IMG/VR virus record: IMGVR_UViG_3300048839_001249
Coordinates: 28,689 to 92,688 of that record
Length of the DNA stretch: 64,000 nucleotides
Source of the DNA: a virus
Direction: 5' to 3' (one strand)
The notes beneath the pieces are model-generated. The model did not search any database and was not told the origin of the DNA. It saw only the letters and a program-made list of their open reading frames with translations. Of this stretch, positions 2-60,495 are shown piece after piece. How positions within the stretch are numbered: the stretch's first letter is position 1; the number at the start of each line of letters is the position of its first letter. The position numbers were made by a program, and so were the translations under genes.

Positions 2-3000
2 CTTTACTCTACTAACATTAAAGATGATACTACTAATGTATTTTTGACTGTTCCTCTTGCTGAATCTGATACTGTACTTGTTACAAGAAACGATACTATC
101 TTTAAGATGTACTTATCCATTGACAGTGTACTCTATGCAGACACAGCCGGATATGCACTAAATAGTTATTGGTATGAAGTTCCTGATGATACTATTAAAA
201 CTTACAATCATGTAGTTGTGGATTCAAGTTTTATGGTTAATTACAAGAATACTATATTTGGACATTATAATACTGGTTTATTTGGTAACGATTCTAATTT
301 AGTGTTTGGTATATTAGAAGATAGTGTATGGATGATAGACCATGTTTGGAGTGAAAGTGAAATGTTAGTGAGAACTATTATGGGAGTTAATTTACTTGAT
401 GGGACTACAAGTGGATTGAGTGCGTCTATGAATAAGACTGTTGGAGGAAGGCATTCTGTTGAACTATTTGCTGGAAATCATACTTCGGTAGCTATTAATA
501 GTAAAGAAAATGCTACGATAACTGCTGATACATTTAATCTTTATATAGAAAGTGCTATGAATACAGTGCTATCTATAACCGATAGTAATTATAAGTTTAC
601 TGGTATTCCCGAATCTACTGTTAAATATGTTGCAGGGTTTGATGAAAATGGGACTCTATATAAGGCAGATAGTTCTTTATTCAGTAACTCTACAATAATT
701 CCTTATACGGGAGATACTCTATGGAAATCAACATATAGTACGGAAGGTTATGATATTATATCTCTTGTAGATTCAGGTAATGTTGTTGCTATTGGTACTG
801 ATTATCCTAATGGTACATTAGATGTTAGAGGTTTTTTAAATGTTTCTTCTGATTTAATTAATCCAGCAGGTTTTGGTGTATATGATACTAACGGTGTGGG
901 ATTATCTTATATTCCAACCTTACAGTTTATAATAGATAGAAGTAATAGTGATGAAGCAGGCTATACTGCAATGTCTTTAGATTTATCTGAAGAAGGTAAT
1001 AATCCATTCTATTTGTTTAATGGCTCTTTAGAAAATCATTATAACTCATTTTATGCCACTAAGGATAGTCTTGGATATAAAGCTAATGATACTACTAAGG
1101 TATTTCATATTAATGCTACAGGGGAAGTATATGCTCCATTGATTAGTAATTTAGCTAAATCTAATATTCTATATTACGATACATTAACAGGAGAAATTAC
1201 GTATGATACTGCACAATCAGTAAATGAAACAGACCCTTACTTTACTGCTGATGTTCGAGATAGTGTACTTTCTATAAGCCAAGAACAATGGTTATTAACT
1301 TATACTGATACTTCCAGATATTCTTTTAATTATGCTAAAGATAGTAGTTATGTAAGCATGAATATAGATACCATATACTTATTTACTTTACCGGAACAAC
1401 ATATAGATTACATTTATGAAAATCCCGATAATGGTAGTGGATTAGCAACTCCGTGGACTACAAATGAGGTTTGGGTTGTTGCTGATGAAAGAGTACTTGG
1501 TAATATAGCAGACACAATTATTATTGAATGGAGTGAACCAGCAACAGATACTTGTATTATTACTAATGTGATATATGCTGTCCTTCCCTCTACTGACTCA
1601 GTAACAAAATTTATTCATACTCCTAATAACTCAATGTCGGTTTGGGATATTGTTAGCATTACTATAAAATCTCCAATATTACCTCCTCTCTATATATATC
1701 CTAATCTTCATGTATTAGGCAATCAAGTAATAGGAGATACAGCTAATTTTCAAACATATCTTAATTTACCTTCTCAGGATTCAGTAATCTATTCAGATAC
1801 TACATTTTATTATAATGAACAAGACCCTATATTCTTATCTAATGTTCGAGATTCTATTATAAGTGTTTCTCAGGAACAGTGGAATTTAATGTATGTAGAC
1901 ACGTCACGATATTCATTAACGAGTCTTCATTCAGATAGTGCTAACTATGCACCTATGCCCGATAGTGTTATTCATGCTATATATTCGGATACTGCATTAT
2001 ACTATGATGAAATAGACCCTCATTTTATTGATGATGCTAGAGATACTGTTATTGCTATCAGTCAAGAGCAATGGTCACTTAGGTATGCAGATACAGCAAG
2101 GTACGCTCTAAATGTTGTTCCTTTTCCTGAACCTAATTGGGATACTCTTGCTTACTATGCTAACCTTGATACATTAGATTATTACCAATTAATAACTGAT
2201 GATCATGATACATCATCTACTAACGAACTTCAATTACTTACTTATGATAAGTCAACTGGTATAATGAATATTAGTGATGGAACTGGCGATACAATAAATT
2301 TATTTGGTTCTGCTAATAGAGGATTAGTTCCTCAATCTGGAGGTGGAACATCTAACTATATGAGGGCAGATGGTACATGGGCAACTCCTCCGGGAACAGC
2401 AGTAGCAGATAACTTAGGTAATCATATAATGACCCAAAACCTATCAACAACTGATGATTATTTTATAGGGAATAATGGAGAAAATTGGACAGGATTTAAG
2501 TTTACAAGATATAAGAGTAAGGATAGTTATAAGTTAGCAGGTAATCAATATCAGTTTAGTAATATAATACTATCTAAATTATATGACGATAATACAGCAA
2601 GTTACATTGCTCCAATATGGATTCAGGGTGTTGCTGCAAACGATAACTTTGGAGTAACTGAGTATATTCCAAAAGGATTTACAATTCAGCCTGAAACACA
2701 ATATCCGATATTTTCTGATCTTGCTGATACTATTGATGCTGGATACATTATGCTATGGAATCACTATGATAGCGTAGTCAATAAGATTAACAGACATGAT
2801 TTTATCAATAGCATTACCTCTTTTCAGCTATATGATGATACCACTACCTACGATGCTACAAAATATTGGGTAGAACAGCAGGGTTATCTTACATCATTCA
2901 CAGAACAAGATTCTGTTATAGGTAATGAAGGAGATACTACAAAACATCATACTGTAGGATGGGGATTGGTAGGAGAGTTCTATAATCAAACAGATAATGT

Positions 3001-5578
3001 AGAGTGGGAAGCTGATAGTAGTAAAGTTGCTTCTTTATATGCTCTTAATGATACAGCAACAAATATTAGAGCAGATTTTCCAAATGTAAGTGGGTTTATA
3101 TCGTGGTCTGATACTAATGTTATTGCAACACAATACTGGGTTAACGATCAAGGTTATTTAACTACTGAGGTTGATGGTAGCATAACCAATGAATTACAGA
3201 ATTTAACATTTGCTCAGGCTACTGGAATAATGAATATTAGTTCAGGTACAGGAGATACTATTCATGAGTATGATGGTGAAACAAGAGGGTTAGTTCCTGA
3301 TGCCTTACCTGTATTTACAGGAAATGAGTTTCTCAATATTGACGGCACATGGGATGCTGTTGATATTCCTGTTGAACAAGATAGTGTGATAGGTAATGAG
3401 GGTGATACCAGTAAGTATATTATAGATGGCTTTGGGATTAAAGATTTTGCTTACAACCAGACTCAGGATGCTACTGTCGAAGTAGACACTACTTTAATTA
3501 CTACATGGAATGATGTGGATAGTTTAATAGCACTTGTTGACACAGGGTACTTTAAGAGAACAAACAACTTTACTACACTTAAAAATATAAATGACTCTGT
3601 TGGTATAGGAACAGATAATCCAAGAACTAAGTTTGATATAATAGGAGAATTATCTCTTACTGGACAATCTAATTCTATTATCTATGATGTAGATAGTAAT
3701 GAGTTGATTAGGATTAATCATGAAGGAGTTAATCCACCAAATTTAGGAAGTTATGTTGATATAGGATTGCATGGTGGAGAATCTTATGGATTAGGATCGT
3801 TAAATACATTCTCGTATAACGATAGTCAATTTTCACTTGCTAATTTTGGTTCAGTAAAAACAAACGGAAGACAATCAAATTATGGAAGTGATCTTCATAA
3901 TAATATTATGTGTTTTGATACAGTACCTTCATTATCATACATTATTTTTAAATCTTGGCCAGACGCAGGAGGAAATATTGGTACATTAGTAGTAACAGCA
4001 GCAAATGATATTGGTCTGATAAAAGTTAACTTCTCTGTGCAATACAGTGTCAATTATATTACTGTTATTGATAGTTCAACAACAGTAAGGACAGGAATGT
4101 TTTGGGATAGTTTATTCATTGCCTCACCGAGATTATCTTCTACTTATGATTCCATAATGATACCAGTTTATTCAAGAGTAATTGCATCTGCCGAAAATAA
4201 CAATAAGGTATCTGTTAAGGTTGAGTATTTCCATACTGAGAATAATGCTTTTGGAGTAGATATTACTACGACTACCTCTGCCGACATATTAACCTCTTGG
4301 GTAGATAAGGTTAATAAATATGGAATAGACACTGCAACAACAGCTTTTGGAATATACTATGATCCTATTACTGGGGTTACAAGTTATGATTCCGTATCAA
4401 GCGGGGGAGGGGCTGATGGCGATAGTCTTTGGAATCATGTAGTATTACAGGATATAGATATGACAGGATTTAATCTTATCAATCCCGATACATTATTTCA
4501 CACACCTTATTCAACAACATTTGTTCCTGCTGATGATGAATTACTTATTTGGGATGATACTGAAAATGCTATTGCAGGAGTTTCTTTAACTGATTTAACA
4601 TCTAATCTTCCATTGGATAACTACCAGTTAAAATCTGATACCTCTACTTATGATGCTACAAAGCATTATGTGGATAGTGTTAATATGTTTCATCAAGAAG
4701 ATGGAGCAGTGGAGATGAAAGATAATGACGTATTGAGAATTGATGCTGGTGATGTTTTGTCTTTTGTGAACAATACAGGAGATAGCACTAAAATATATCA
4801 GGCAGGAGAGAGTTTTGTTATCCAACCTCAAAGTACTGTTGAGTACACTCAAATATATAGTGATGTTTATATAGATGGAGATACTCTCATACTTAATGAA
4901 ATGACTAAGGCTAAGAAGGCTCACAATGTATTTTATGATGAGGTTTCAGGAGTGCTTACTTATGGAGATACTACTATTACAGCAGCAGAAGTAGATGGCT
5001 CGGTTACTAATGAAGGCTCATTAACAGTTGTTGATCCTGGGGCAAACAAAAGTGCAATAAGAAGTAATACAAGTGGAAGTACTGATGTTACGATAGAGGG
5101 TGGAGATAATATTACGGTAACTGAGAATACGGGCACTGGAACTATCACAGTAGCAACAAAACAGACGACTGCCATTAATACAACAATGGTTGCAACTGCC
5201 ACCTTTAGTTTTAATGATGCGACAACTTACTATTTTGGGGCTTCACAGGTTGGATTTAGCACAACAGAGACAATATCAAGAAGTATTATTATTCCCCATG
5301 ATGGCACAATAACATTAGGACAATTTGTTACAACAACTGTTGCCGCAGGATCATCTCAGGATTGGAGTGTATATTTAAGACTGAATAATACAACGGATTA
5401 CTTAATAGAAACAATACAATCAGGAGGTAATGTGGAAATTTGGAGAAATGATGGGTTAAGCATAGCTGTTTCTGAAGGAGATGCTCTTTGTTGGAAAATG
5501 GTTACTCCTACTTGGACTACAAATCCACAGATAAGAGGAAATACTGGATGTCATGGAACCATGATAATAACATATTAA
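2..5578 (+). CDS. Large repeat-rich tail fibre/adhesin-like protein, 5'-truncated (frame open to the window edge)
   Basis: No stop between position 2 and the TTG at 44 (LYSTNIKDDTTNVF...). VGIGT.NP and EVDGS(I/V)TNE repeats resemble Bacteroidota and phage fibre-like proteins. T/D/S-rich; lies upstream of the tail module. Confidence 0.65.
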   Translation, partial: LYSTNIKDDTTNVFLTVPLAESDTVLVTRNDTIFKMYLSIDSVLYADTAGYALNSYWYEVPDDTIKTYNHVVVDSSFMVNYKNTIFGHYNTGLFGNDSNLVFGILEDSVWMIDHVWSESEMLVRTIMGVNLLDGTTSGLSASMNKTVGGRHSVELFAGNHTSVAINSKENATITADTFNLYIESAMNTVLSITDSNYKFTGIPESTVKYVAGFDENGTLYKADSSLFSNSTIIPYTGDTLWKSTYSTEGYDIISLVDSGNVVAIGTDYPNGTLDVRGFLNVSSDLINPAGFGVYDTNGVGLSYIPTLQFIIDRSNSDEAGYTAMSLDLSEEGNNPFYLFNGSLENHYNSFYATKDSLGYKANDTTKVFHINATGEVYAPLISNLAKSNILYYDTLTGEITYDTAQSVNETDPYFTADVRDSVLSISQEQWLLTYTDTSRYSFNYAKDSSYVSMNIDTIYLFTLPEQHIDYIYENPDNGSGLATPWTTNEVWVVADERVLGNIADTIIIEWSEPATDTCIITNVIYAVLPSTDSVTKFIHTPNNSMSVWDIVSITIKSPILPPLYIYPNLHVLGNQVIGDTANFQTYLNLPSQDSVIYSDTTFYYNEQDPIFLSNVRDSIISVSQEQWNLMYVDTSRYSLTSLHSDSANYAPMPDSVIHAIYSDTALYYDEIDPHFIDDARDTVIAISQEQWSLRYADTARYALNVVPFPEPNWDTLAYYANLDTLDYYQLITDDHDTSSTNELQLLTYDKSTGIMNISDGTGDTINLFGSANRGLVPQSGGGTSNYMRADGTWATPPGTAVADNLGNHIMTQNLSTTDDYFIGNNGENWTGFKFTRYKSKDSYKLAGNQYQFSNIILSKLYDDNTASYIAPIWIQGVAANDNFGVTEYIPKGFTIQPETQYPIFSDLADTIDAGYIMLWNHYDSVVNKINRHDFINSITSFQLYDDTTTYDATKYWVEQQGYLTSFTEQDSVIGNEGDTTKHHTVGWGLVGEFYNQTDNVEWEADSSKVASLYALNDTATNIRADFPNVSGFISWSDTNVIATQYWVNDQGYLTTEVDGSITNELQNLTFAQATGIMNISSGTGDTIHEYDGETRGLVPDALPVFTGNEFLNIDGTWDAVDIPVEQDSVIGNEGDTSKYIIDGFGIKDFAYNQTQDATVEVDTTLITTWNDVDSLIALVDTGYFKRTNNFTTLKNINDSVGIGTDNPRTKFDIIGELSLTGQSNSIIYDVDSNELIRINHEGVNPPNLGSYVDIGLHGGESYGLGSLNTFSYNDSQFSLANFGSVKTNGRQSNYGSDLHNNIMCFDTVPSLSYIIFKSWPDAGGNIGTLVVTAANDIGLIKVNFSVQYSVNYITVIDSSTTVRTGMFWDSLFIASPRLSSTYDSIMIPVYSRVIASAENNNKVSVKVEYFHTENNAFGVDITTTTSADILTSWVDKVNKYGIDTATTAFGIYYDPITGVTSYDSVSSGGGADGDSLWNHVVLQDIDMTGFNLINPDTLFHTPYSTTFVPADDELLIWDDTENAIAGVSLTDLTSNLPLDNYQLKSDTSTYDATKHYVDSVNMFHQEDGAVEMKDNDVLRIDAGDVLSFVNNTGDSTKIYQAGESFVIQPQSTVEYTQIYSDVYIDGDTLILNEMTKAKKAHNVFYDEVSGVLTYGDTTITAAEVDGSVTNEGSLTVVDPGANKSAIRSNTSGSTDVTIEGGDNITVTENTGTGTITVATKQTTAINTTMVATATFSFNDATTYYFGASQVGFSTTETISRSIIIPHDGTITLGQFVTTTVAAGSSQDWSVYLRLNNTTDYLIETIQSGGNVEIWRNDGLSIAVSEGDALCWKMVTPTWTTNPQIRGNTGCHGTMIITY
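1223..2104 (+). repeat. Three degenerate protein repeats (N/D)ExDPxF...RD(S/T)xxx(I/V)SQEQWxLxYxDT(S/A)RY
   Basis: Copies start near 1223, 1814 and 2006 in the translated fibre ORF. Confidence 0.85.
2219..3415 (+). repeat. Duplicated modules TNELQxLT...TGIMNISxGTGDTI...RGLVP...DGTW and EQDSVIGNEGDTxK
   Basis: Two copies of each in the translation (near 2219 and 3185; near 2903 and 3374). Confidence 0.85.
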
Positions 5579-5579
5579 T

Positions 5580-5768
5580 ATGACAATAGATTTATCCATA
5601 GGAGAGGTTGAATACCTACTCACATTGATCAATATGAATAATGAGTTTGGTGGTCATTACAATGATCCTAAGTATGATATACCTTTGAGGGACAAGTTAA
5701 GAGAGTTAAAGAAAAAGATTAATGAAAAGGTTACTACTGATACTATTAATGATGCCTGTAATTGTTAA
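5580..5768 (+). CDS. Hypothetical protein
   Basis: 62-aa ORF starting 1 nt after the fibre stop codon. Confidence 0.5.
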   Translation: MTIDLSIGEVEYLLTLINMNNEFGGHYNDPKYDIPLRDKLRELKKKINEKVTTDTINDACNC

Positions 5769-6165
5769 TGCTCAGGTGCTTACTAAAAAGGATATTATCC
5801 CATTGGTCTGTACATTTCAGGCAGGGATATATGAAGGCTTTGCTGAAGGATTGAAGTTTCACTATGAAAGCATTGACAGTAAACTTGGATTAAACGATAA
5901 TTACTGGAATCCTGCTATGAGTTGCAACAATAAATATAAGAATGGTGATCCTGCACAGGGAGAGGCATTTCCTATGAGTACCACAGTCTTTGTATGGACT
6001 ACTGATGGTTATCATCTTACAAGAGCTGCAAGAAATACCTGTCTTATGGCTGGACTCACATTCAAATTGGGAGAGAAACAAAAGTGGTATGAATACCTTT
6101 TGGAATTTATTGCTTACTATATTACTTTTACATTAGGATTTAACATAACTTATGAACTGCTATGA
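5722..6165 (+). CDS. Signal-peptide/membrane hypothetical protein
   Basis: N-terminal MKRLLLILLMMPVIVNAQ signal-like peptide and hydrophobic C-terminus; ATGA overlap with the next gene. Confidence 0.7.
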   Translation: MKRLLLILLMMPVIVNAQVLTKKDIIPLVCTFQAGIYEGFAEGLKFHYESIDSKLGLNDNYWNPAMSCNNKYKNGDPAQGEAFPMSTTVFVWTTDGYHLTRAARNTCLMAGLTFKLGEKQKWYEYLLEFIAYYITFTLGFNITYELL

Positions 6166-6710
6166 AACTAATTATCTTTGGTAAAGGCGGTTTTGGTAGA
6201 GAAGTAGAAGCCGCTATTAAAAACTCCAGACTATCCAGATTTTACGATATTGTAATGATGGAAGAAGGAGAAGATTTACTACCTATTTATAATGAATGTA
6301 TTATAGCTATTGGCGATCCTAATGTAAGAAGTAGATTAGCTAATGAATTACGATATAGCTTTGGAAAGATTATATTAGGTACTTGTTATTCCTCTAATAT
6401 AGGGGGCGGTACAATTATTCAACCCGGAGCTATAATTACTGTTAATTGTAATATTGGTAAGCATGTTCAAGTAAATTTAAATGCTACTGTTGGACATGAT
6501 TGTAACATAGGAGATTGTACAACTATTGCTCCAGGGGCCCATATATCAGGAAATGTAACTATTGGAAAAAGATGTTATATAGGAACAGGAGCAGTAATTA
6601 AACAGAATATTAATATTTGTGATGATGTAACAATAGGTGCTGGTGGAGTAGTAGTAAAAGATATTACTGAATCAGGTATTTATGTTGGTTGTCCAGTTAA
6701 TAAAAAATAG
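6162..6710 (+). CDS. NeuD/PglD/VioB-family sugar acetyltransferase (left-handed beta-helix)
   Basis: IIFGKGGFGREV Rossmann-like start, IAIGDP..R, hexapeptide repeats, VGHD histidine motif, C-terminal YVGCP. Confidence 0.9.
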   Translation: MKLIIFGKGGFGREVEAAIKNSRLSRFYDIVMMEEGEDLLPIYNECIIAIGDPNVRSRLANELRYSFGKIILGTCYSSNIGGGTIIQPGAIITVNCNIGKHVQVNLNATVGHDCNIGDCTTIAPGAHISGNVTIGKRCYIGTGAVIKQNINICDDVTIGAGGVVVKDITESGIYVGCPVNKK

Positions 6711-6711
6711 T

Positions 6712-7044
6712 ATGAAGTACATTGTATTTTGGTTATTGGTTATTAATGTTAGCTTGTCTAACAAGCCTAAAATTGATGAGTTTGGTGCAAAAAGTCAATG
6801 GACTACTCTTGAATATAATATGGGTACTGAATATGAACAGTATTTTAAAATGTTTGATGATAGACAGGCTGCACTTGACTTTCTTAGTAGAGGACAAAAT
6901 CACTCAAAGGTATATGCTATTGCAATAGATAGTGTTAAGATTCCTACAACGGAAGAATATTTTAAGAATTATATTTTGGTATATGACTCGGTTAATTATT
7001 ATACCTTACCAATTTTACATGACACAATAATATTACGCCCATGA
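6712..7044 (+). CDS. Secreted/membrane hypothetical protein
   Basis: ATG at 6712 preferred (MKYIVFWLLVINVSLS, signal-like); overlaps the next start codon. Confidence 0.6.
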   Translation: MKYIVFWLLVINVSLSNKPKIDEFGAKSQWTTLEYNMGTEYEQYFKMFDDRQAALDFLSRGQNHSKVYAIAIDSVKIPTTEEYFKNYILVYDSVNYYTLPILHDTIILRP

Positions 7045-7604
7045 CAAAACAATTTGTATTTAAGACAGGAGATATTGTATTAGTATCTGGACACTCTAAG
7101 AGGGCAGAGATTATACAAAAGTTTCAAGAAAAGTCTGATAAAGACTCAGGTAAATGGAATCATTCCATGCTTGTTACAGTAATTAATGGAATACCTTATG
7201 TATATGAAGCTGCTGAGATTGAAGAAAGAAAAGTCAAAGCTGCTGCTAAGTTTACTCACATTAGTGAATATAATGGATATGAACTATTAGTTCTTAGACC
7301 TAAGTTTGCTATCATTGAAAACGATGTTATTCAATGGTGTGTATTCTATAATGGTACTCCTTATGATTATTCTAGTTTACTTAGAGATCAAATAGTAAGA
7401 ACACTTACTGGTTGGTGGTTAGGTAAGAAAGGAGATAAAGCTGCTAGACGTATGGTATGTCACGAGCTTACTCAATTTATTATGAACCTATATAAACCAG
7501 ACTTATTTCCTGAATGGTTTAAAGGTGATGTAGCTAAGATATTTCATTCTGTTGATTATAATAAGGTACAATATATACCTAATTACAAATACATTAAACA
7601 ATAA
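7041..7604 (+). CDS. Permuted papain-like NlpC/P60 (YiiX/YebB-type) enzyme
   Basis: GDIVL start, WNHSML His, GTPYDY, and a C-terminal MVCHEL Cys; His precedes Cys as in permuted NlpC/P60. Confidence 0.8.
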   Translation: MTKQFVFKTGDIVLVSGHSKRAEIIQKFQEKSDKDSGKWNHSMLVTVINGIPYVYEAAEIEERKVKAAAKFTHISEYNGYELLVLRPKFAIIENDVIQWCVFYNGTPYDYSSLLRDQIVRTLTGWWLGKKGDKAARRMVCHELTQFIMNLYKPDLFPEWFKGDVAKIFHSVDYNKVQYIPNYKYIKQ

Positions 7605-7620
7605 TTTAAATTAGATTACT

Positions 7621-8514
7621 ATGAAGACAAAAATTTTAGTATTACTATTTAGTGTTGTAATGATCACAGCACTTGCACAAGAAACCTGTATTCGGTATTC
7701 AGTGAAAACATCACCCTCTTCTGGTTATTCTGGTGGATTTAGGGATGAGTTATGCTATGATGAATATGGTATGTTTCCTACTACTGCACATAACCCATAT
7801 CAATTAGGTATTGAGGTTAATGGTGAACTATTACTTAAGTGGAAAGCTTTAGTTGAATTAAGGAAGCCTATATGGGGTGAATTAGGTAATCAGAAGTTTA
7901 AAGATTTACTTCCTGAATATATTGAATCAGTAGATGAATATATCTATATTGAGCAGTTTCCTTGGTTCTCTTTTGATACATTACCCTCATTACCCAAAGG
8001 TCATGAATTAGTACCTTACGGATATGAGCTTAGAGTATCTTCTGGGGGTAGTGAATATATGTATGTTCAAGGAGCTACTTTAGAGATGGCTGAAATGTTA
8101 CTTGATCAAGGATACTTTGCAGAATGGAGGCCATGGAATAAAGTAGGTCTTCGTATTATGAAAGTAGTCAATCCTGAATATGCTATTGTAGAAGCACAAC
8201 GTACTCAGATGTATATTGATTATGAAAATATAATTAGTACATATCTTGTACAAAGTGCAATTTATAAGTTTCCTAAGTTCTACTATCCTAAGGAATATTA
8301 TACTTTAAGATGGTGGATTAAAACATCAGAAGATGCTAATTACGTAGAAGTTACACCTGATAAGGAACATCCTTTATATTCAGATACACGATCTGGTTAT
8401 ATAGATGAAAGAAAGATAGCTAGAGAGCAAGACAAGAAATCTTGGAATGCTTGGATTAATAGTACTATTTCTTATAGTGGAGATCAGAGAGTTAAAAAAT
8501 TACTTGGTTACTAA
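7621..8514 (+). CDS. Secreted hypothetical protein
   Basis: Signal peptide MKTKILVLLFSVVMITALAQ; 297 aa. Confidence 0.7.
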   Translation: MKTKILVLLFSVVMITALAQETCIRYSVKTSPSSGYSGGFRDELCYDEYGMFPTTAHNPYQLGIEVNGELLLKWKALVELRKPIWGELGNQKFKDLLPEYIESVDEYIYIEQFPWFSFDTLPSLPKGHELVPYGYELRVSSGGSEYMYVQGATLEMAEMLLDQGYFAEWRPWNKVGLRIMKVVNPEYAIVEAQRTQMYIDYENIISTYLVQSAIYKFPKFYYPKEYYTLRWWIKTSEDANYVEVTPDKEHPLYSDTRSGYIDERKIAREQDKKSWNAWINSTISYSGDQRVKKLLGY

Positions 8515-8567: not shown

Positions 8568-8831
8568 ATGGCTAAAATACTCAATGAAAATTCCTTTTCG
8601 TGGCTTGATAAAATTGTAAGTATAATATTATCTGTAATCAGTGGTATAGCTGTAGTTATACTTTTTGTTGCAGATGTAAAAAATACTACTAAAACTAATG
8701 CTAATGACATTCAAAATGTCAAGGATAACTTTAGTGATTTTAAATCAGACATTAAGGATGATGTTAAGGAAATAAAAGAAGATATTGAATATGTTAGGAA
8801 ACTTATCGAAAACAAACACAGCAATGATTAG
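8568..8831 (+). CDS. Single-TM plus coiled-coil membrane protein (holin/spanin-like)
   Basis: TM segment IVSIILSVISGIAVVILFV followed by heptad-like DIKDDVKEIKEDI. Confidence 0.55.
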   Translation: MAKILNENSFSWLDKIVSIILSVISGIAVVILFVADVKNTTKTNANDIQNVKDNFSDFKSDIKDDVKEIKEDIEYVRKLIENKHSND

Positions 8832-9051
8832 AATTGTATGTATTTTAATTTTGTTGTCATTACTTTCATTACCAGTAATATATCTTACTACTCCTATGGA
8901 AAAGGAAAACACTGAACTAACACAATTTGTAACACGGGGTAGTAGCATAATGAAGATACAATATGAAAGTCAAGATTCATTAACACATTGTTTGGAAGAT
9001 TTAAAAAAACAAGTTGATAGTCTTGTAATGACTGTGGAAAAATATTATTAA
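8824..9051 (+). CDS. Membrane-anchored hypothetical protein
   Basis: ATG at 8824 preferred (MIRIVCILILLSLLSLPVIYL); overlaps the previous stop. Confidence 0.55.
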   Translation: MIRIVCILILLSLLSLPVIYLTTPMEKENTELTQFVTRGSSIMKIQYESQDSLTHCLEDLKKQVDSLVMTVEKYY

Positions 9052-59887: not shown

Positions 59888-59918
59888 CAAAGGTAATATT
59901 TTTTTAGTGTCGTGTCAA
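59888..59918 (-). promoter_or_regulatory. Bacteroidota promoter TTG-N20-TACCTTTG
   Basis: Minus-strand TTG at 59918-59916, 20-nt spacer, TACCTTTG at 59895-59888. Confidence 0.6.
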
Positions 59919-60239
59919 GTTTTCTTCAAAAAATTTTTCAGCATTATAATCATCATTATAGATCATATATTTATCTTTTGTGCTGATAATCAGTAAGTCA
60001 CCAGATAATTCTACCAGTCTGTTTTTTGAGTCATAGAAATAGTAACCATCTGAATTTTCAGAATCATTGAGTATTCCACTGAATTCAAAAACATTGATCA
60101 GTACACCACCTGAATATTGTTCAATGTGATAAAATCTGTCACTGGTTTGCATTTGCTTGTTGAGTCTTTCACAACTTCTTTGACAACTTGCAAGTGTAAC
60201 AAGTAATAGTAATCCGATAATAATTTTAACTGTTTTCAT
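59904..60239 (-). CDS. Lipoprotein
   Basis: Signal peptide with an LASC lipobox. Confidence 0.75.
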   Translation of the reverse strand: MKTVKIIIGLLLLVTLASCQRSCERLNKQMQTSDRFYHIEQYSGGVLINVFEFSGILNDSENSDGYYFYDSKNRLVELSGDLLIISTKDKYMIYNDDYNAEKFFEENLTRH

Positions 60240-60240
60240 T

Positions 60241-60495
60241 TTATTCTATTATGGTTAGTGTTTTTACAATGTTTTTATTGACTTCTGTATTATTTTGAAG
60301 TATAAAACATTCTCTAAATAAAGAGTAGTTTGTTATCATAAGAGTATCATTATTAATGACAATCTTCTTTCCTACATAGCTTTTCATCTCTGTATCTGCA
60401 TTTGTTAGCTTGTTAGTTTTTGTAATTATAATATACATAAAAGATACTGCAAGTATGATAGCTAATATAATTAATACTTTTGTTATTGTACTCAT
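60241..60495 (-). CDS. Membrane-anchored hypothetical protein
   Basis: N-terminal TM segment. Confidence 0.65.
   Translation of the reverse strand: MSTITKVLIILAIILAVSFMYIIITKTNKLTNADTEMKSYVGKKIVINNDTLMITNYSLFRECFILQNNTEVNKNIVKTLTIIE

What the first reader, a model, noticed from the sequence alone, without database searches (positions are those of the whole stretch)
2..4980. Fibre-like protein saturated with the Bacteroidota O-glycosylation sequon D-(S/T)-(A/I/L/V/M/T)
Seen in sequence: by hand I count about 49 strict sequons (DTV, DTI, DSV, DTA, DTL, DTT, DSL...) plus about 20 other D-S/T sites in 1844 aa. The last ~190 aa have essentially none, and the RNAP and replication proteins show no such density. 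Established: this is the general O-glycosylation motif of Bacteroidota extracytoplasmic proteins. Inference: the phage may co-opt host glycosylation to build a glycan-coated fibre or surface protein, with an unglycosylated distal binding domain. Host glycosylation acts on exported proteins, so the missing N-terminus should carry a signal peptide, implying an unusual assembly route or a host-surface role.
Basis: partly seen in the sequence, partly recalled or inferred. Interest (0 to 1): 0.8.

Follow-up and report, generated by a model that had tools for sequence, protein, structure and literature searches.

The report
Exported, sugar-tagged phage fibre protein
A crAss-like phage of a Flavobacterium-type host puts the host's own secretion signal on a giant tail-fibre-like protein and packs it with about four times the chance number of the host's sugar-attachment motif. 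The fibre is therefore very probably exported and sugar-coated in the periplasm, a route I found described in no paper for tailed-phage fibres.

Summary
The window holds 1858 aa of a 2053-aa ORF that starts 583 nt upstream. That part carries 50 strict D-[ST]-[AILVMT] sequons against 13.4 +/- 3.4 in shuffles. The whole protein has 56 against 14.4 (z about 12).

A position-by-position scan recovers the published Bacteroidota O-glycosylation motif: only D at position 1, only S/T at position 2, and V/I/L/A/S/C/T at position 3. The signal is frame-specific, survives masking of internal repeats, and is absent from the other 70-odd ORFs.

The missing N-terminus is a Sec/SPI signal peptide with Gln at +1 (the Bacteroidetes Q-rule). 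Five neighbouring ORFs carry such peptides too.

Among 234 homologues, strong enrichment occurs only in signal-peptide proteins (10/84 against 0/150). Bacterial chromosomal homologues are depleted. The sequon-free C-terminus models as a TNF/C1q-like tip.

Export plus host glycosylation is very probable but not shown by experiment. Whether the fibre ends on the virion is open. A cultured Cellulophaga phage has three leader-bearing proteins in its virion proteome.

This scan has noted the same theme on other DNA, in at least 25 genomes. I found no paper describing it.

The parts
2..5578 (+). C-terminal 1858 aa of a 2053-aa fibre-like preprotein (P0002). The gene starts 583 nt upstream of the window at genome 28105, with a signal peptide of about 20 aa (..SAFS|Q).
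   Evidence: ORF. Sequon counts: 56 vs 14.4, z 12. Positional scan matches the sequon. No Pfam, PHROG, NCBIfam or PDB sequence match.
2..4975 (+). Sequon-rich stalk: 50 strict sequons in the window, about 3 per 100 aa.
   Evidence: Of 26 sequons in the blocks aligned with the closest homologue P0006 (48% identity), 13 are kept as sequons.
2204..2416 (+). First '..GTG-DTI-N..RGLVP..DGTW' fibre module (residues about 930-1000). A second copy lies at about 3161-3352.
   Evidence: This module brings most of the 1794 phmmer hits. At the DTI position the family consensus is V/A/T-T-L/I.
4973..5152 (+). 'EVDGSVTNEG..' module (residues about 1853-1912).
   Evidence: It is shared at 55-68% identity with many signal-peptide-bearing proteins, some carrying Peptidase_S74. 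Proteins drawn through one such relative include chromosomal ones of Flavobacterium, Winogradskyella, Tenacibaculum and Aquimarina.
5114..5575 (+). Sequon-free C-terminal tip domain, a TNF/C1q-like jelly roll.
   Evidence: AF2 on 25 sequences: pLDDT 83.5, pTM 0.79. Foldseek hits: ExsFA, BclA, RANKL, C1q and phage RBP heads, TM about 0.5. The domain also ends many small fibre-like proteins that lack a signal peptide.
5722..6165 (+). 147-aa ORF with a Q-rule signal peptide (..VNA|Q), no sequon, function unknown.
   Evidence: no family match.
6162..6710 (+). 182-aa NeuD/PglB/VioB (PglD-like) sugar N-acetyltransferase. No signal peptide, so cytoplasmic.
   Evidence: TIGR03570 E 2.5e-44 (151.3 bits; cut-off 160.8). 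PglD_N plus Hexapep.
6712..7044 (+). Small ORF (120 aa from the first ATG at 6682; 110 aa from Met11) with a signal-peptide-like start and 3 sequons against 0.3 expected.
7621..8514 (+). 297-aa ORF with a Q-rule signal peptide (..ALA|Q), function unknown.
   Evidence: no family match.

Best explanation
P0002 is a 2053-aa modular fibre-like late protein of a crAss-like phage whose nearest cultured relatives infect Flavobacterium.

Proposed pathway:
1. It is made as a preprotein with a Sec / signal-peptidase-I leader that obeys the Bacteroidetes Q-rule.
2. It is exported to the host periplasm.
3. Its stalk is O-glycosylated by the host's general O-glycosylation system at many of its 56-67 D-S/T-x sequons.
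4. The TNF/C1q-like tip stays bare.

The three ORFs just upstream (730, 145 and 159 aa) and two or three small downstream ORFs take the same export route.

Shown from sequence: the leaders, the motif-specific enrichment, its restriction to leader-bearing proteins, and the fibre modules and tip fold.

Inferred: actual export, cleavage and glycan transfer.

My preferred fate, at about 45% given export: these are the phage's host-recognition fibres. They would meet the cytoplasmically built particles only when the inner membrane is breached at lysis. The host-type glycan coat would serve stability or shielding.
For: Leaders:
- Six ORFs in one co-oriented cluster (genome 24960-37202) start with M-K/R, a hydrophobic core of 10-15 residues, small residues at -3 and -1, and Gln at +1: AFS|Q, VFS|Q, GFS|Q, SFG|Q, VNA|Q, ALA|Q.
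- The Q-rule is specific to Bacteroidetes SPI substrates (PMC5837995, found).
- The gene starts are fixed by gaps of 2-20 nt between genes.

Sequon:
- z is 12 for P0002.
- The unbiased scan gives D only at position 1 (E -0.9, N -1.1), S/T only at position 2, and V, I, L, A, S, C, T at position 3. Permuted motifs are not enriched.
- This equals the glycoproteomic preference reviewed in PMC12871550.

Coupling to export:
- z > 3 occurs in 10/84 leader-bearing against 0/150 leaderless homologues, Fisher 2.5e-5.
- The closest homologue, P0006, has both a leader and z 6.4.
- An independent complete crAss-like phage (G001) has four leader-bearing ORFs in the same slot, one with 15 vs 4.0, z 6.6.
- crAss001 gp27, which has an N-terminal hydrophobic segment, has z 6.8, while its leaderless fibres gp22-26 do not.

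Extremity: in 303 ORFs of a Bacteroidota chromosome with 31% GC, the maximum density is 1.7 per 100 aa and the maximum z is 6.2. P0002 has 2.7 per 100 aa and z 12.

Fibre nature:
- The fibre modules and the tip domain are shared with leaderless fibre-like proteins.
- The repeats of the neighbour P0003 match annotated tail fibres of cultured phages.

Virion precedent: Cellulophaga phage phi18:3 gp085-087 are annotated as virion proteins from MS/MS, and all three start with Q-rule leaders.
Against: - No experiment: no glycan, cleavage or localisation data exist for this uncultured phage.
- The signal peptides were judged by rule (charge, hydrophobic core, -3/-1, Q at +1), not by SignalP.
- Tailed-phage particles are assembled in the cytoplasm. 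I know of no described case of a fibre added from the periplasm.
- The closest relative with enough sequence (G003, major capsid protein 75% identical) has ordinary leaderless fibre-like ORFs and also a leader-bearing giant ORF. There the exported protein may be an extra rather than the receptor-binding fibre.
- Modules of the same kind occur in bacterial chromosomal surface proteins, so 'fibre-like' does not prove a virion part.
- Not all leader-bearing phage relatives are sequon-rich: G002, G003 and phi18:3 are not.
Confidence: 0.72

Rival explanations
1. The proteins are exported and glycosylated but never part of the virion. They would act in or on the infected cell's envelope, or be released at lysis. 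Possible roles are receptor masking or destruction, capsule or EPS degradation to free progeny, blocking of adsorption to debris, or adhesins.
For: - In G001 the leader-bearing ORFs in the same slot include a right-handed beta-helix protein and a ConA-like lectin with a K1-lyase C-terminal domain, the kind of protein that cuts or binds surface polysaccharide.
- G003 keeps leaderless fibre-like ORFs beside its leader-bearing giant ORF.
- The cluster also holds a sugar N-acetyltransferase and leader-bearing ORFs with no fibre features.
- P. gingivalis prophages encode Q-rule proteins that were read as envelope modifiers (PMC10367356).
- Cytoplasmic assembly is the rule for tailed phages.
Against: - The genes sit in the tail-fibre slot. 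The first is 2 nt from the preceding ORF of the structural gene block.
- I found no other large fibre-like ORF without a leader in this genome.
- phi18:3 leader-bearing proteins were found in purified virions.
- A 2053-aa fibre with a trimer-type tip is a costly design for a mere masking factor.
Confidence: 0.35
2. The D-S/T-hydrophobic excess is a structural or compositional feature of this fibre fold (turn caps, repeats), not a glycosylation signal.
For: - The protein is rich in D, S and T (8.8%, 9.1%, 11.4%) and has internal repeats that carry the motif.
- T followed by a hydrophobic residue is structurally conserved at least at one module position.
Against: - Shuffles keep the composition and still give z 12.
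- Masking repeats leaves z 9.5.
- E and N at position 1 and all permuted motifs are not enriched.
- Leaderless homologues average observed/expected 0.66 and none exceeds z 3. Bacterial chromosomal homologues are depleted, mostly z -2 to -3.7.
- At the homologous module position, D replaces V/A/T only in the leader-bearing, enriched proteins.
Confidence: 0.04
3. The hydrophobic N-termini are not used for export (for example they are membrane-insertion or docking elements of cytoplasmic fibres). The sequons would then serve a cytoplasmic, phage-directed modification.
For: - Phage virion glycosylation by phage-encoded cytoplasmic glycosyltransferases is known in mycobacteriophages (from my own knowledge, not checked here).
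- A sugar acetyltransferase lies in the cluster.
Against: - All six N-termini follow the SPI grammar with Gln at +1.
- No glycosyltransferase turned up among the roughly 20 ORFs of and around the cluster that I screened. The rest of the genome was not screened.
- The motif equals that of the periplasmic host system, which acts only on non-cytoplasmic proteins (PMC12871550).
Confidence: 0.06
4. The cluster is host DNA: an assembly chimera or a recently captured bacterial adhesin cassette with no role in the phage cycle.
For: - Modules of the same kind occur in proteins encoded on long bacterial contigs.
- GC here is 0.32-0.36, against 0.28-0.31 in much of the rest of the window.
Against: - The cluster has the same strand, the same GC-skew sign and tight or overlapping gene junctions with the flanking phage genes.
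- The same slot is filled by leader-bearing ORFs in three other crAss-like contigs, one of them complete with terminal repeats.
- Bacterial homologues are sequon-depleted, whereas this protein is saturated.
Confidence: 0.03

Closest known systems
Substrates of the general protein O-glycosylation system of Bacteroidota (review PMC12871550). The heavily glycosylated Tannerella S-layer proteins are the densest known case.
   Same: A Sec leader is combined with the D-(S/T)-(L/I/V/T/A/S..) sequon. The positional preferences recovered here match the glycoproteomic ones.
   Different: - It is phage-encoded and fibre-like.
- Its density (2.7 per 100 aa, z 12) is about nine times that of leader-bearing ORFs in a Bacteroidota chromosome sample.
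- The review does not mention phages (0 occurrences).
Cellulophaga phage phi18:3 gp085, gp086, gp087 (NC_021794; cultured podovirus, Pachyviridae)
   Same: These are phage proteins of a Flavobacteriia host with Q-rule leaders. The record annotates them as virion or tail proteins from MS/MS of particles.
   Different: - There is no detectable sequence similarity to the proteins here.
- They are not sequon-enriched (1 vs about 3 each).
- They are much smaller (547-785 aa).
- I found no statement that anyone has remarked on the leaders.
Tail fibres of cultured crAss-like phages (crAss001 gp22-gp26; Flavobacterium phage FpV4 fibre region)
   Same: Same virus order: the major capsid protein is 61% identical to FpV4 and matches phrog_11589. 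The genes have the same position or role in the genome.
   Different: The fibres of the cultured phages have no leader and no sequon excess.
Q-rule signal-peptide proteins of Porphyromonas gingivalis prophages (PMC10367356)
   Same: These are phage genes adapted to the host's Sec/SPI pathway with Gln at +1.
   Different: They are small accessory genes of temperate phages with unknown function, not fibre-like. Glycosylation was not considered there.
Bdellovibrio mosaic adhesive trimer (MAT) fibres (PMC10769870) and leader-bearing fibre-like proteins of Bacteroidota chromosomes
   Same: These are exported, phage-fibre-like mosaic proteins with swappable tip domains. A MAT tip (8okw) is among the fold matches of the tip here. 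They share the 'EVDGSxTNE' and 'GLVP..DGTW' modules.
   Different: - They are bacterial, displayed on the cell, and some carry T9SS C-terminal domains or S74 chaperones.
- The Bacteroidota ones are sequon-depleted.
- P0002 has neither a T9SS C-terminal domain nor S74.
BclA / ExsFA exosporium fibres of Bacillus
   Same: Resemblance in working principle only: a stalk ending in a TNF/C1q-like trimeric tip. These are the top fold matches. That the BclA stalk is glycosylated is from my own knowledge.
   Different: They have a collagen-like stalk, a Gram-positive host and a different glycosylation chemistry. There is no sequence relationship.

Membership tests
Sec / signal peptidase I substrate obeying the Bacteroidetes Q-rule | N-terminal K/R region, a hydrophobic core of 10-15 residues, small residues at -3 and -1, and Gln at +1. 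| tested here: met
   P0002 has MKR, then the core, then A-F-S|Q. The same grammar is seen in five neighbours. The rule is from PMC5837995. SignalP was not available, so this is a rule-based call.
Substrate of the Bacteroidota general O-glycosylation system | D-(S/T)-(A/I/L/V/M/T, also S/C) sequon in a non-cytoplasmic protein. | tested here: met
   56 strict and 67 extended sequons. The position-specific enrichment matches the published preference.
Substrate of the Bacteroidota general O-glycosylation system | The host belongs to Bacteroidota and has the system. | tested here: inconclusive
   The host is unknown. The nearest cultured phages infect Flavobacterium psychrophilum (major capsid protein 61% identical), and the Q-rule leaders point to Bacteroidota. 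No host genome was identified.
Substrate of the Bacteroidota general O-glycosylation system | A glycan is actually attached to Ser/Thr of the sequon. | not testable with these tools
   This needs glycoproteomics.
Tailed-phage tail fibre / receptor-binding protein (virion part) | Modules shared with known phage fibres, and a gene located in the structural block. | tested here: met
   The GLVP..DGTW module and the tip domain are shared with leaderless fibre-like proteins. The repeats of the neighbour P0003 match annotated tail fibres. The cluster starts 2 nt after the preceding ORF of the structural block.
Tailed-phage tail fibre / receptor-binding protein (virion part) | Presence in purified particles, and an N-terminal tail-docking domain. 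| tested here: inconclusive
   The N-terminal 410 aa have no homologue. Virion presence cannot be tested here. phi18:3 is only a precedent.
Type IX secretion cargo | C-terminal domain of type A (TIGR04183 / PF18962) or type B (TIGR04131). | tested here: not met
   Neither Pfam (E <= 0.01) nor NCBIfam (E <= 0.1) gave a match in P0002-P0005. None was found in the G001 or G002 leader-bearing proteins either.
S74-type fibres (intramolecular chaperone) | Peptidase_S74 domain (PF13884) at the C-terminus. | tested here: not met
   No Pfam match in P0002. Some relatives that share one module do have it.
Crassvirales (the phage) | crAss-type major capsid protein and a giant virion-RNAP-type ORF. | tested here: met
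   phrog_11589 E 1.8e-170. tblastn hits to crAss-like phages of Flavobacterium, Bacteroides and Cellulophaga. A 5366-aa ORF is present. I did not test its RNAP motifs.
NeuD/PglB/VioB (PglD-like) sugar N-acetyltransferase (window 6162-6710) | PglD N-terminal domain plus a left-handed hexapeptide-repeat helix. | tested here: met
   PF17836 and PF00132 are above their cut-offs. TIGR03570 scores 151.3 bits, just under its 160.8 cut-off.

The most novel reading that the evidence does not exclude
The host-recognition fibres of a tailed phage mature outside the cytoplasm. They would be Sec-exported, cut by signal peptidase I before Gln, and coated with the host's own O-glycan at about 60 sites in the periplasm. 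They would join the cytoplasmically built particles only when the inner membrane is breached at lysis. The virion would then leave the cell wearing a host-made glycan coat on a stalk with a bare TNF/C1q-like binding tip.
Probability: 0.35. Interest if true: 0.92.

Novelty: new variant of a known kind. Interest (0 to 1): 0.8.

Why it matters
All parts of a tailed phage are thought to be built in the cytoplasm. Known phage virion glycosylation relies on phage-encoded cytoplasmic enzymes.

Here the sequence argues that a phage has shaped a giant fibre-like late protein as a high-density client of two host periplasmic pathways: Sec/SPI with the Q-rule, and the phylum-wide O-glycosylation system.

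If the protein is virion-borne, this would be a new assembly route and a host-derived glycan shield on a phage. That would bear on stability, adsorption, host range and immune recognition of the crAss-like and other Bacteroidota phages that dominate gut, soil and aquatic viromes.

If it is not virion-borne, it is a new class of large exported phage effectors acting on the envelope.

Either way it gives a natural, very dense test substrate for a glycosylation system whose function is still described as mostly unknown (PMC12871550).

The contrast between sequon-saturated phage proteins and sequon-depleted bacterial homologues suggests that selection acts on the motif in both directions.

Tried and rejected
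Searches that found nothing:
- Pfam, PHROGs, NCBIfam and a PDB sequence search gave nothing for P0002. PDB gave nothing for P0003.
- The N-terminal 410 aa have no homologue among shorter proteins or among anything fetched here.

Genomic context of the enriched homologues could not be obtained:
- The search for related loci found no locus for P0002, P0006, P0021, P0050 or P0247 in viral contigs.
- It found none for P0247 in metagenome contigs, and none for P0042 or P0021 in genome contigs.
- I therefore cannot say whether those proteins are phage or bacterial.

Other dead ends:
- GenBank phages hold almost nothing like P0002 (one 4% patch).
- BLAST self-comparison failed to list the short internal repeats. 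I replaced it with a 12-mer identity scan.
- Among about 80 relatives by major capsid protein (66-77% identity, many short) only two show leader-bearing large ORFs, so the trait is patchy.
- The promoter and terminator scan gave nothing decisive for the cluster. Its only notable hit is a hairpin after the 383-aa gene, upstream of the cluster.
- Four literature searches for exported or glycosylated Bacteroidota phage fibres found no such paper.

Readings rejected:
- A DNA-level motif (frame-specific).
- Repeat amplification.
- A fold property.
- T9SS cargo.
- A chimera.
Full report
WHAT IS THERE

The window is bases 28689-92688 of a 92,688-bp virus record that CheckV rates 98% complete. Its major capsid protein matches the crAss-type family phrog_11589 (E 1.8e-170). 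It is 61% identical to that of Flavobacterium psychrophilum phage FpV4, with weaker hits to crAss-like phages of Bacteroides and Cellulophaga.

The ORF of the finding is open from window base 2 to the stop at 5576-5578. It is cut by the window edge: the true start is an ATG 583 nt upstream, giving 2053 aa (P0002).

- The window part has 50 strict D-[ST]-[AILVMT] sites against 13.4 +/- 3.4 in 5000 shuffles (maximum 27; z 10.7). It has 72 D-[ST] against 33.5.
- The whole protein has 56 against 14.4 (z about 12). The count is 67 if Ser/Cys are allowed at the third place.
- An unbiased scan of each motif position gives a clean result. At position 1 only Asp is enriched (z 12; Glu -0.9, Asn -1.1). 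At position 2 only Ser (7.7) and Thr (8.6) are enriched. At position 3, Val 7.9, Ile 6.0, Leu 4.8, Ala 4.7, Ser 3.8, Cys 3.3 and Thr 3.1 are enriched, and nothing else exceeds 1.3. Reversed and permuted motifs are at or below expectation.
- This is the preference found by glycoproteomics for the Bacteroidota O-glycosylation system: L/I/V/T/A/S common, M/F/C/G rare, Glu not tolerated (review PMC12871550).
- The signal is at protein level. The DNA pattern occurs 78 times in frame against 1 and 5 in the other frames.
- It survives conservative masking of later copies of internal repeats: 43 in 1765 aa against 11.9, z 9.5.
- All other ORFs of the genome, including the 5366-, 1668- and 1647-aa proteins, sit at expectation. 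The exceptions are three neighbours: 730 aa (12 vs 4.6), 145 aa (5 vs 0.7) and 120 aa (3 vs 0.3).

THE PREDICTED SIGNAL PEPTIDE IS THERE

The missing N-terminus reads MKR, a 13-residue hydrophobic core, then A-F-S followed by Gln. The three ORFs just upstream (730, 145, 159 aa) and two downstream (147, 297 aa) have the same grammar. Their cleavage motifs are VFS|Q, GFS|Q, SFG|Q, VNA|Q and ALA|Q. The 120-aa ORF looks similar from its second Met.

Gln at +1 is the Bacteroidetes Q-rule of signal peptidase I substrates (PMC5837995). Gaps of 2-20 nt between genes leave no room for other starts. I had no SignalP, so this is a rule-based call.

No T9SS C-terminal domain and no lipoprotein Cys is present.

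THE ENRICHMENT DEPENDS ON THE LEADER, NOT ON THE FOLD

A phmmer search of residues 400-1399 against 1.84 billion representatives gave 1794 hits, mostly through a '..RGLVP..DGTW' fibre module. A word-based search with the C-terminal 214 aa added 109 more.

- Among the 234 homologues of at least 300 aa, z > 3 occurs in 10 of 84 leader-bearing proteins and in 0 of 150 without a leader (Fisher 2.5e-5).
- Leaderless ones average observed/expected 0.66.
- The closest homologue (P0006, 41-48% identical over two blocks) has a Q-rule leader and 29 vs 10 sequons. Of the 26 P0002 sequons in the aligned blocks, 13 are kept as sequons.
- At the module position where P0002, P0006 and P0010 read D-T-I, the family consensus is V/A/T-T-L/I. 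Thr plus a hydrophobic residue is structural, and the Asp that makes the sequon is lineage-specific.
- Leader-bearing homologues are bimodal. Chromosomal ones from Flavobacterium, Winogradskyella, Tenacibaculum, Aquimarina and others, some with T9SS-type C-termini, are mostly depleted (0-3 found against 4-14 expected; z -2 to -3.7).
- In a 400-kb sample of a Bacteroidota chromosome with 31% GC, leader-bearing ORFs average 0.30 sequons per 100 aa. The maxima are 1.7 per 100 aa and z 6.2. P0002, at 2.7 per 100 aa, is far outside that range.

FIBRE NATURE AND THE BARE TIP

The last 200 aa hold no sequon. Their own composition predicts 1.3, and the density of the rest of the protein would predict 6.1.

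Residues 1900-2053, folded with 24 homologues, give a confident beta-sandwich (pLDDT 83.5). Its best PDB matches are TNF/C1q-like trimeric tips: ExsFA, BclA, RANKL, C1q, the head of a lactococcal phage receptor-binding protein, and a Bdellovibrio MAT tip. TM is about 0.5 and E is 1e-4 to 1e-3. The same domain ends many small proteins that have no leader.

The repeats of the neighbour P0003 match PHROGs of virion or tailspike proteins. They also match annotated tail fibres of cultured Pelagibacter, Roseobacter and cyanobacterial phages.

The cluster fills the fibre slot of the genome. It begins 2 nt after the preceding ORF of the structural block.

RELATIVES

- The cultured crAss-like phages FpV4 and crAss001 have fibres with no leader and no sequon excess.
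- crAss001 gp27, a lysis protein with an N-terminal hydrophobic segment, has 4 vs 0.3.
- A complete crAss-like phage with terminal repeats (G001, 95.9 kb) carries four consecutive leader-bearing ORFs in the same slot. One, of 1147 aa, has 15 vs 4.0 (z 6.6). One is a ConA-like lectin with a K1-lyase C-terminal domain. One is a right-handed beta-helix.
- G002 and G003 also have leader-bearing giant ORFs there, but these are not sequon-rich. G003 keeps leaderless fibre-like ORFs beside its own.
- Among about 80 relatives by major capsid protein the trait is rare, though many of those contigs are short.

MECHANISM

I conclude, at about 0.72, that P0002 and its neighbours are exported by Sec, cut before Gln and O-glycosylated by the host in the periplasm. 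What is shown is sequence grammar and selection. Export and glycan transfer are inferred.

The final destination is open.

In favour of virion fibres:
- the fibre modules;
- the slot in the genome;
- the lack of any other large fibre-like ORF without a leader in this genome;
- a precedent that I checked after a lead from earlier notes of this scan. In Cellulophaga phage phi18:3, gp085-087 are annotated as virion or tail proteins from MS/MS of particles, and all three start with Q-rule leaders.

Against virion fibres:
- cytoplasmic assembly is the rule for tailed phages;
- G003 has both kinds of protein;
- bacterial exported proteins use modules of the same kind (MAT fibres, PMC10769870);
- the leader-bearing partners in G001 look like polysaccharide-cutting or -binding proteins, which could act on the envelope of the infected cell.

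I put the virion branch at about 0.35 overall.

NOVELTY

- The O-glycosylation review does not mention phages.
- Four full-text searches found no paper on exported or host-glycosylated fibres of Bacteroidota phages.
- The nearest statements are Q-rule proteins of unknown function in P. gingivalis prophages (PMC10367356), and the remark that phage DGR targets lack signal peptides, which those authors took as supporting a phage origin (PMC6199706).
- Earlier notes of this same scan describe the same theme in at least 25 other genomes. Those are AI notes, not independent evidence. Of their claims I tested only the phi18:3 claim, and I confirmed that the MAT paper exists.

LIMITS

- The host was not identified.
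- There are no experimental data.

Noticed in passing
window 6162-6710 (+): A 182-aa PglD/NeuD-type sugar N-acetyltransferase (PglD_N plus hexapeptide repeats; TIGR03570 E 2.5e-44) sits inside the cluster of leader-bearing genes. It might alter a host glycan (O-glycan, O-antigen or capsule), possibly the one put on the fibres.
   Followed up: partly
protein sets P0006-P0267; loci L140-L156: Sequon use among leader-bearing fibre-like homologues is bimodal: 10 of 84 are strongly enriched and 15 of 84 have z < -2. The chromosomal Bacteroidota homologues examined (L140-L156), mostly leader-bearing, are largely depleted (for example 0 vs 12, 1 vs 12). Selection seems to act both for and against glycosylation.
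   Followed up: partly
L025 25093-25695 (crAss001 gp27): The 'lysis regulatory protein' gp27 of crAss001, which has an N-terminal hydrophobic segment, carries 4 sequons against 0.3 expected (z 6.8). Its leaderless fibres gp22-26 are at expectation.
   Followed up: no
L161 32891-38583 (Cellulophaga phage phi18:3 gp085-087): Three proteins annotated as virion or tail proteins from MS/MS all begin with Q-rule signal peptides (..YSQ|V, ..SAQ|T, ..NAQ|T). They are not sequon-rich.
   Followed up: partly
L160 1251-11020 (-) (G001, complete crAss-like phage): Four consecutive leader-bearing ORFs: 1083 aa (Laminin_G_3 plus K1-lyase_C), 1147 aa (sequon z 6.6), 755 aa (right-handed beta-helix) and 143 aa.
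   Followed up: partly
window 7041-7604 (+): A 187-aa ORF with a faint match to YiiX-type permuted papain-like enzymes (E 0.011). It may be a cell-wall peptidase. Two small ORFs with hydrophobic segments follow at 8568-9051, so a lysis cassette may lie here.
   Followed up: no
window 5580 to about 5730 (+): A small unannotated ORF of about 50 aa fills the gap between P0002 and the 147-aa leader-bearing ORF, and overlaps that ORF's start.
   Followed up: no
L002 5552-5573 (genome 23551-23572), upstream of the window: A strong terminator-like hairpin (9 pairs, 6 G-C, then a T run) lies right after the 383-aa tail-region gene. The run of genes from the 349-aa ORF through the fibre gene therefore starts after it.
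   Followed up: no
L002 5593-6956 (genome 23592-24958), upstream of the window: The 349-aa and 105-aa ORFs that precede the leader-bearing genes end in the same motif of about 35 aa (faint DUF4183 match, E 0.0025). They are the only candidates without a leader for a tail-proximal adaptor.
   Followed up: no
window 59904-60495 (-): A 111-aa ORF with a lipoprotein-type leader (..LASC) lies next to an 84-aa ORF with an N-terminal hydrophobic segment. This looks like a spanin-like pair.
   Followed up: no
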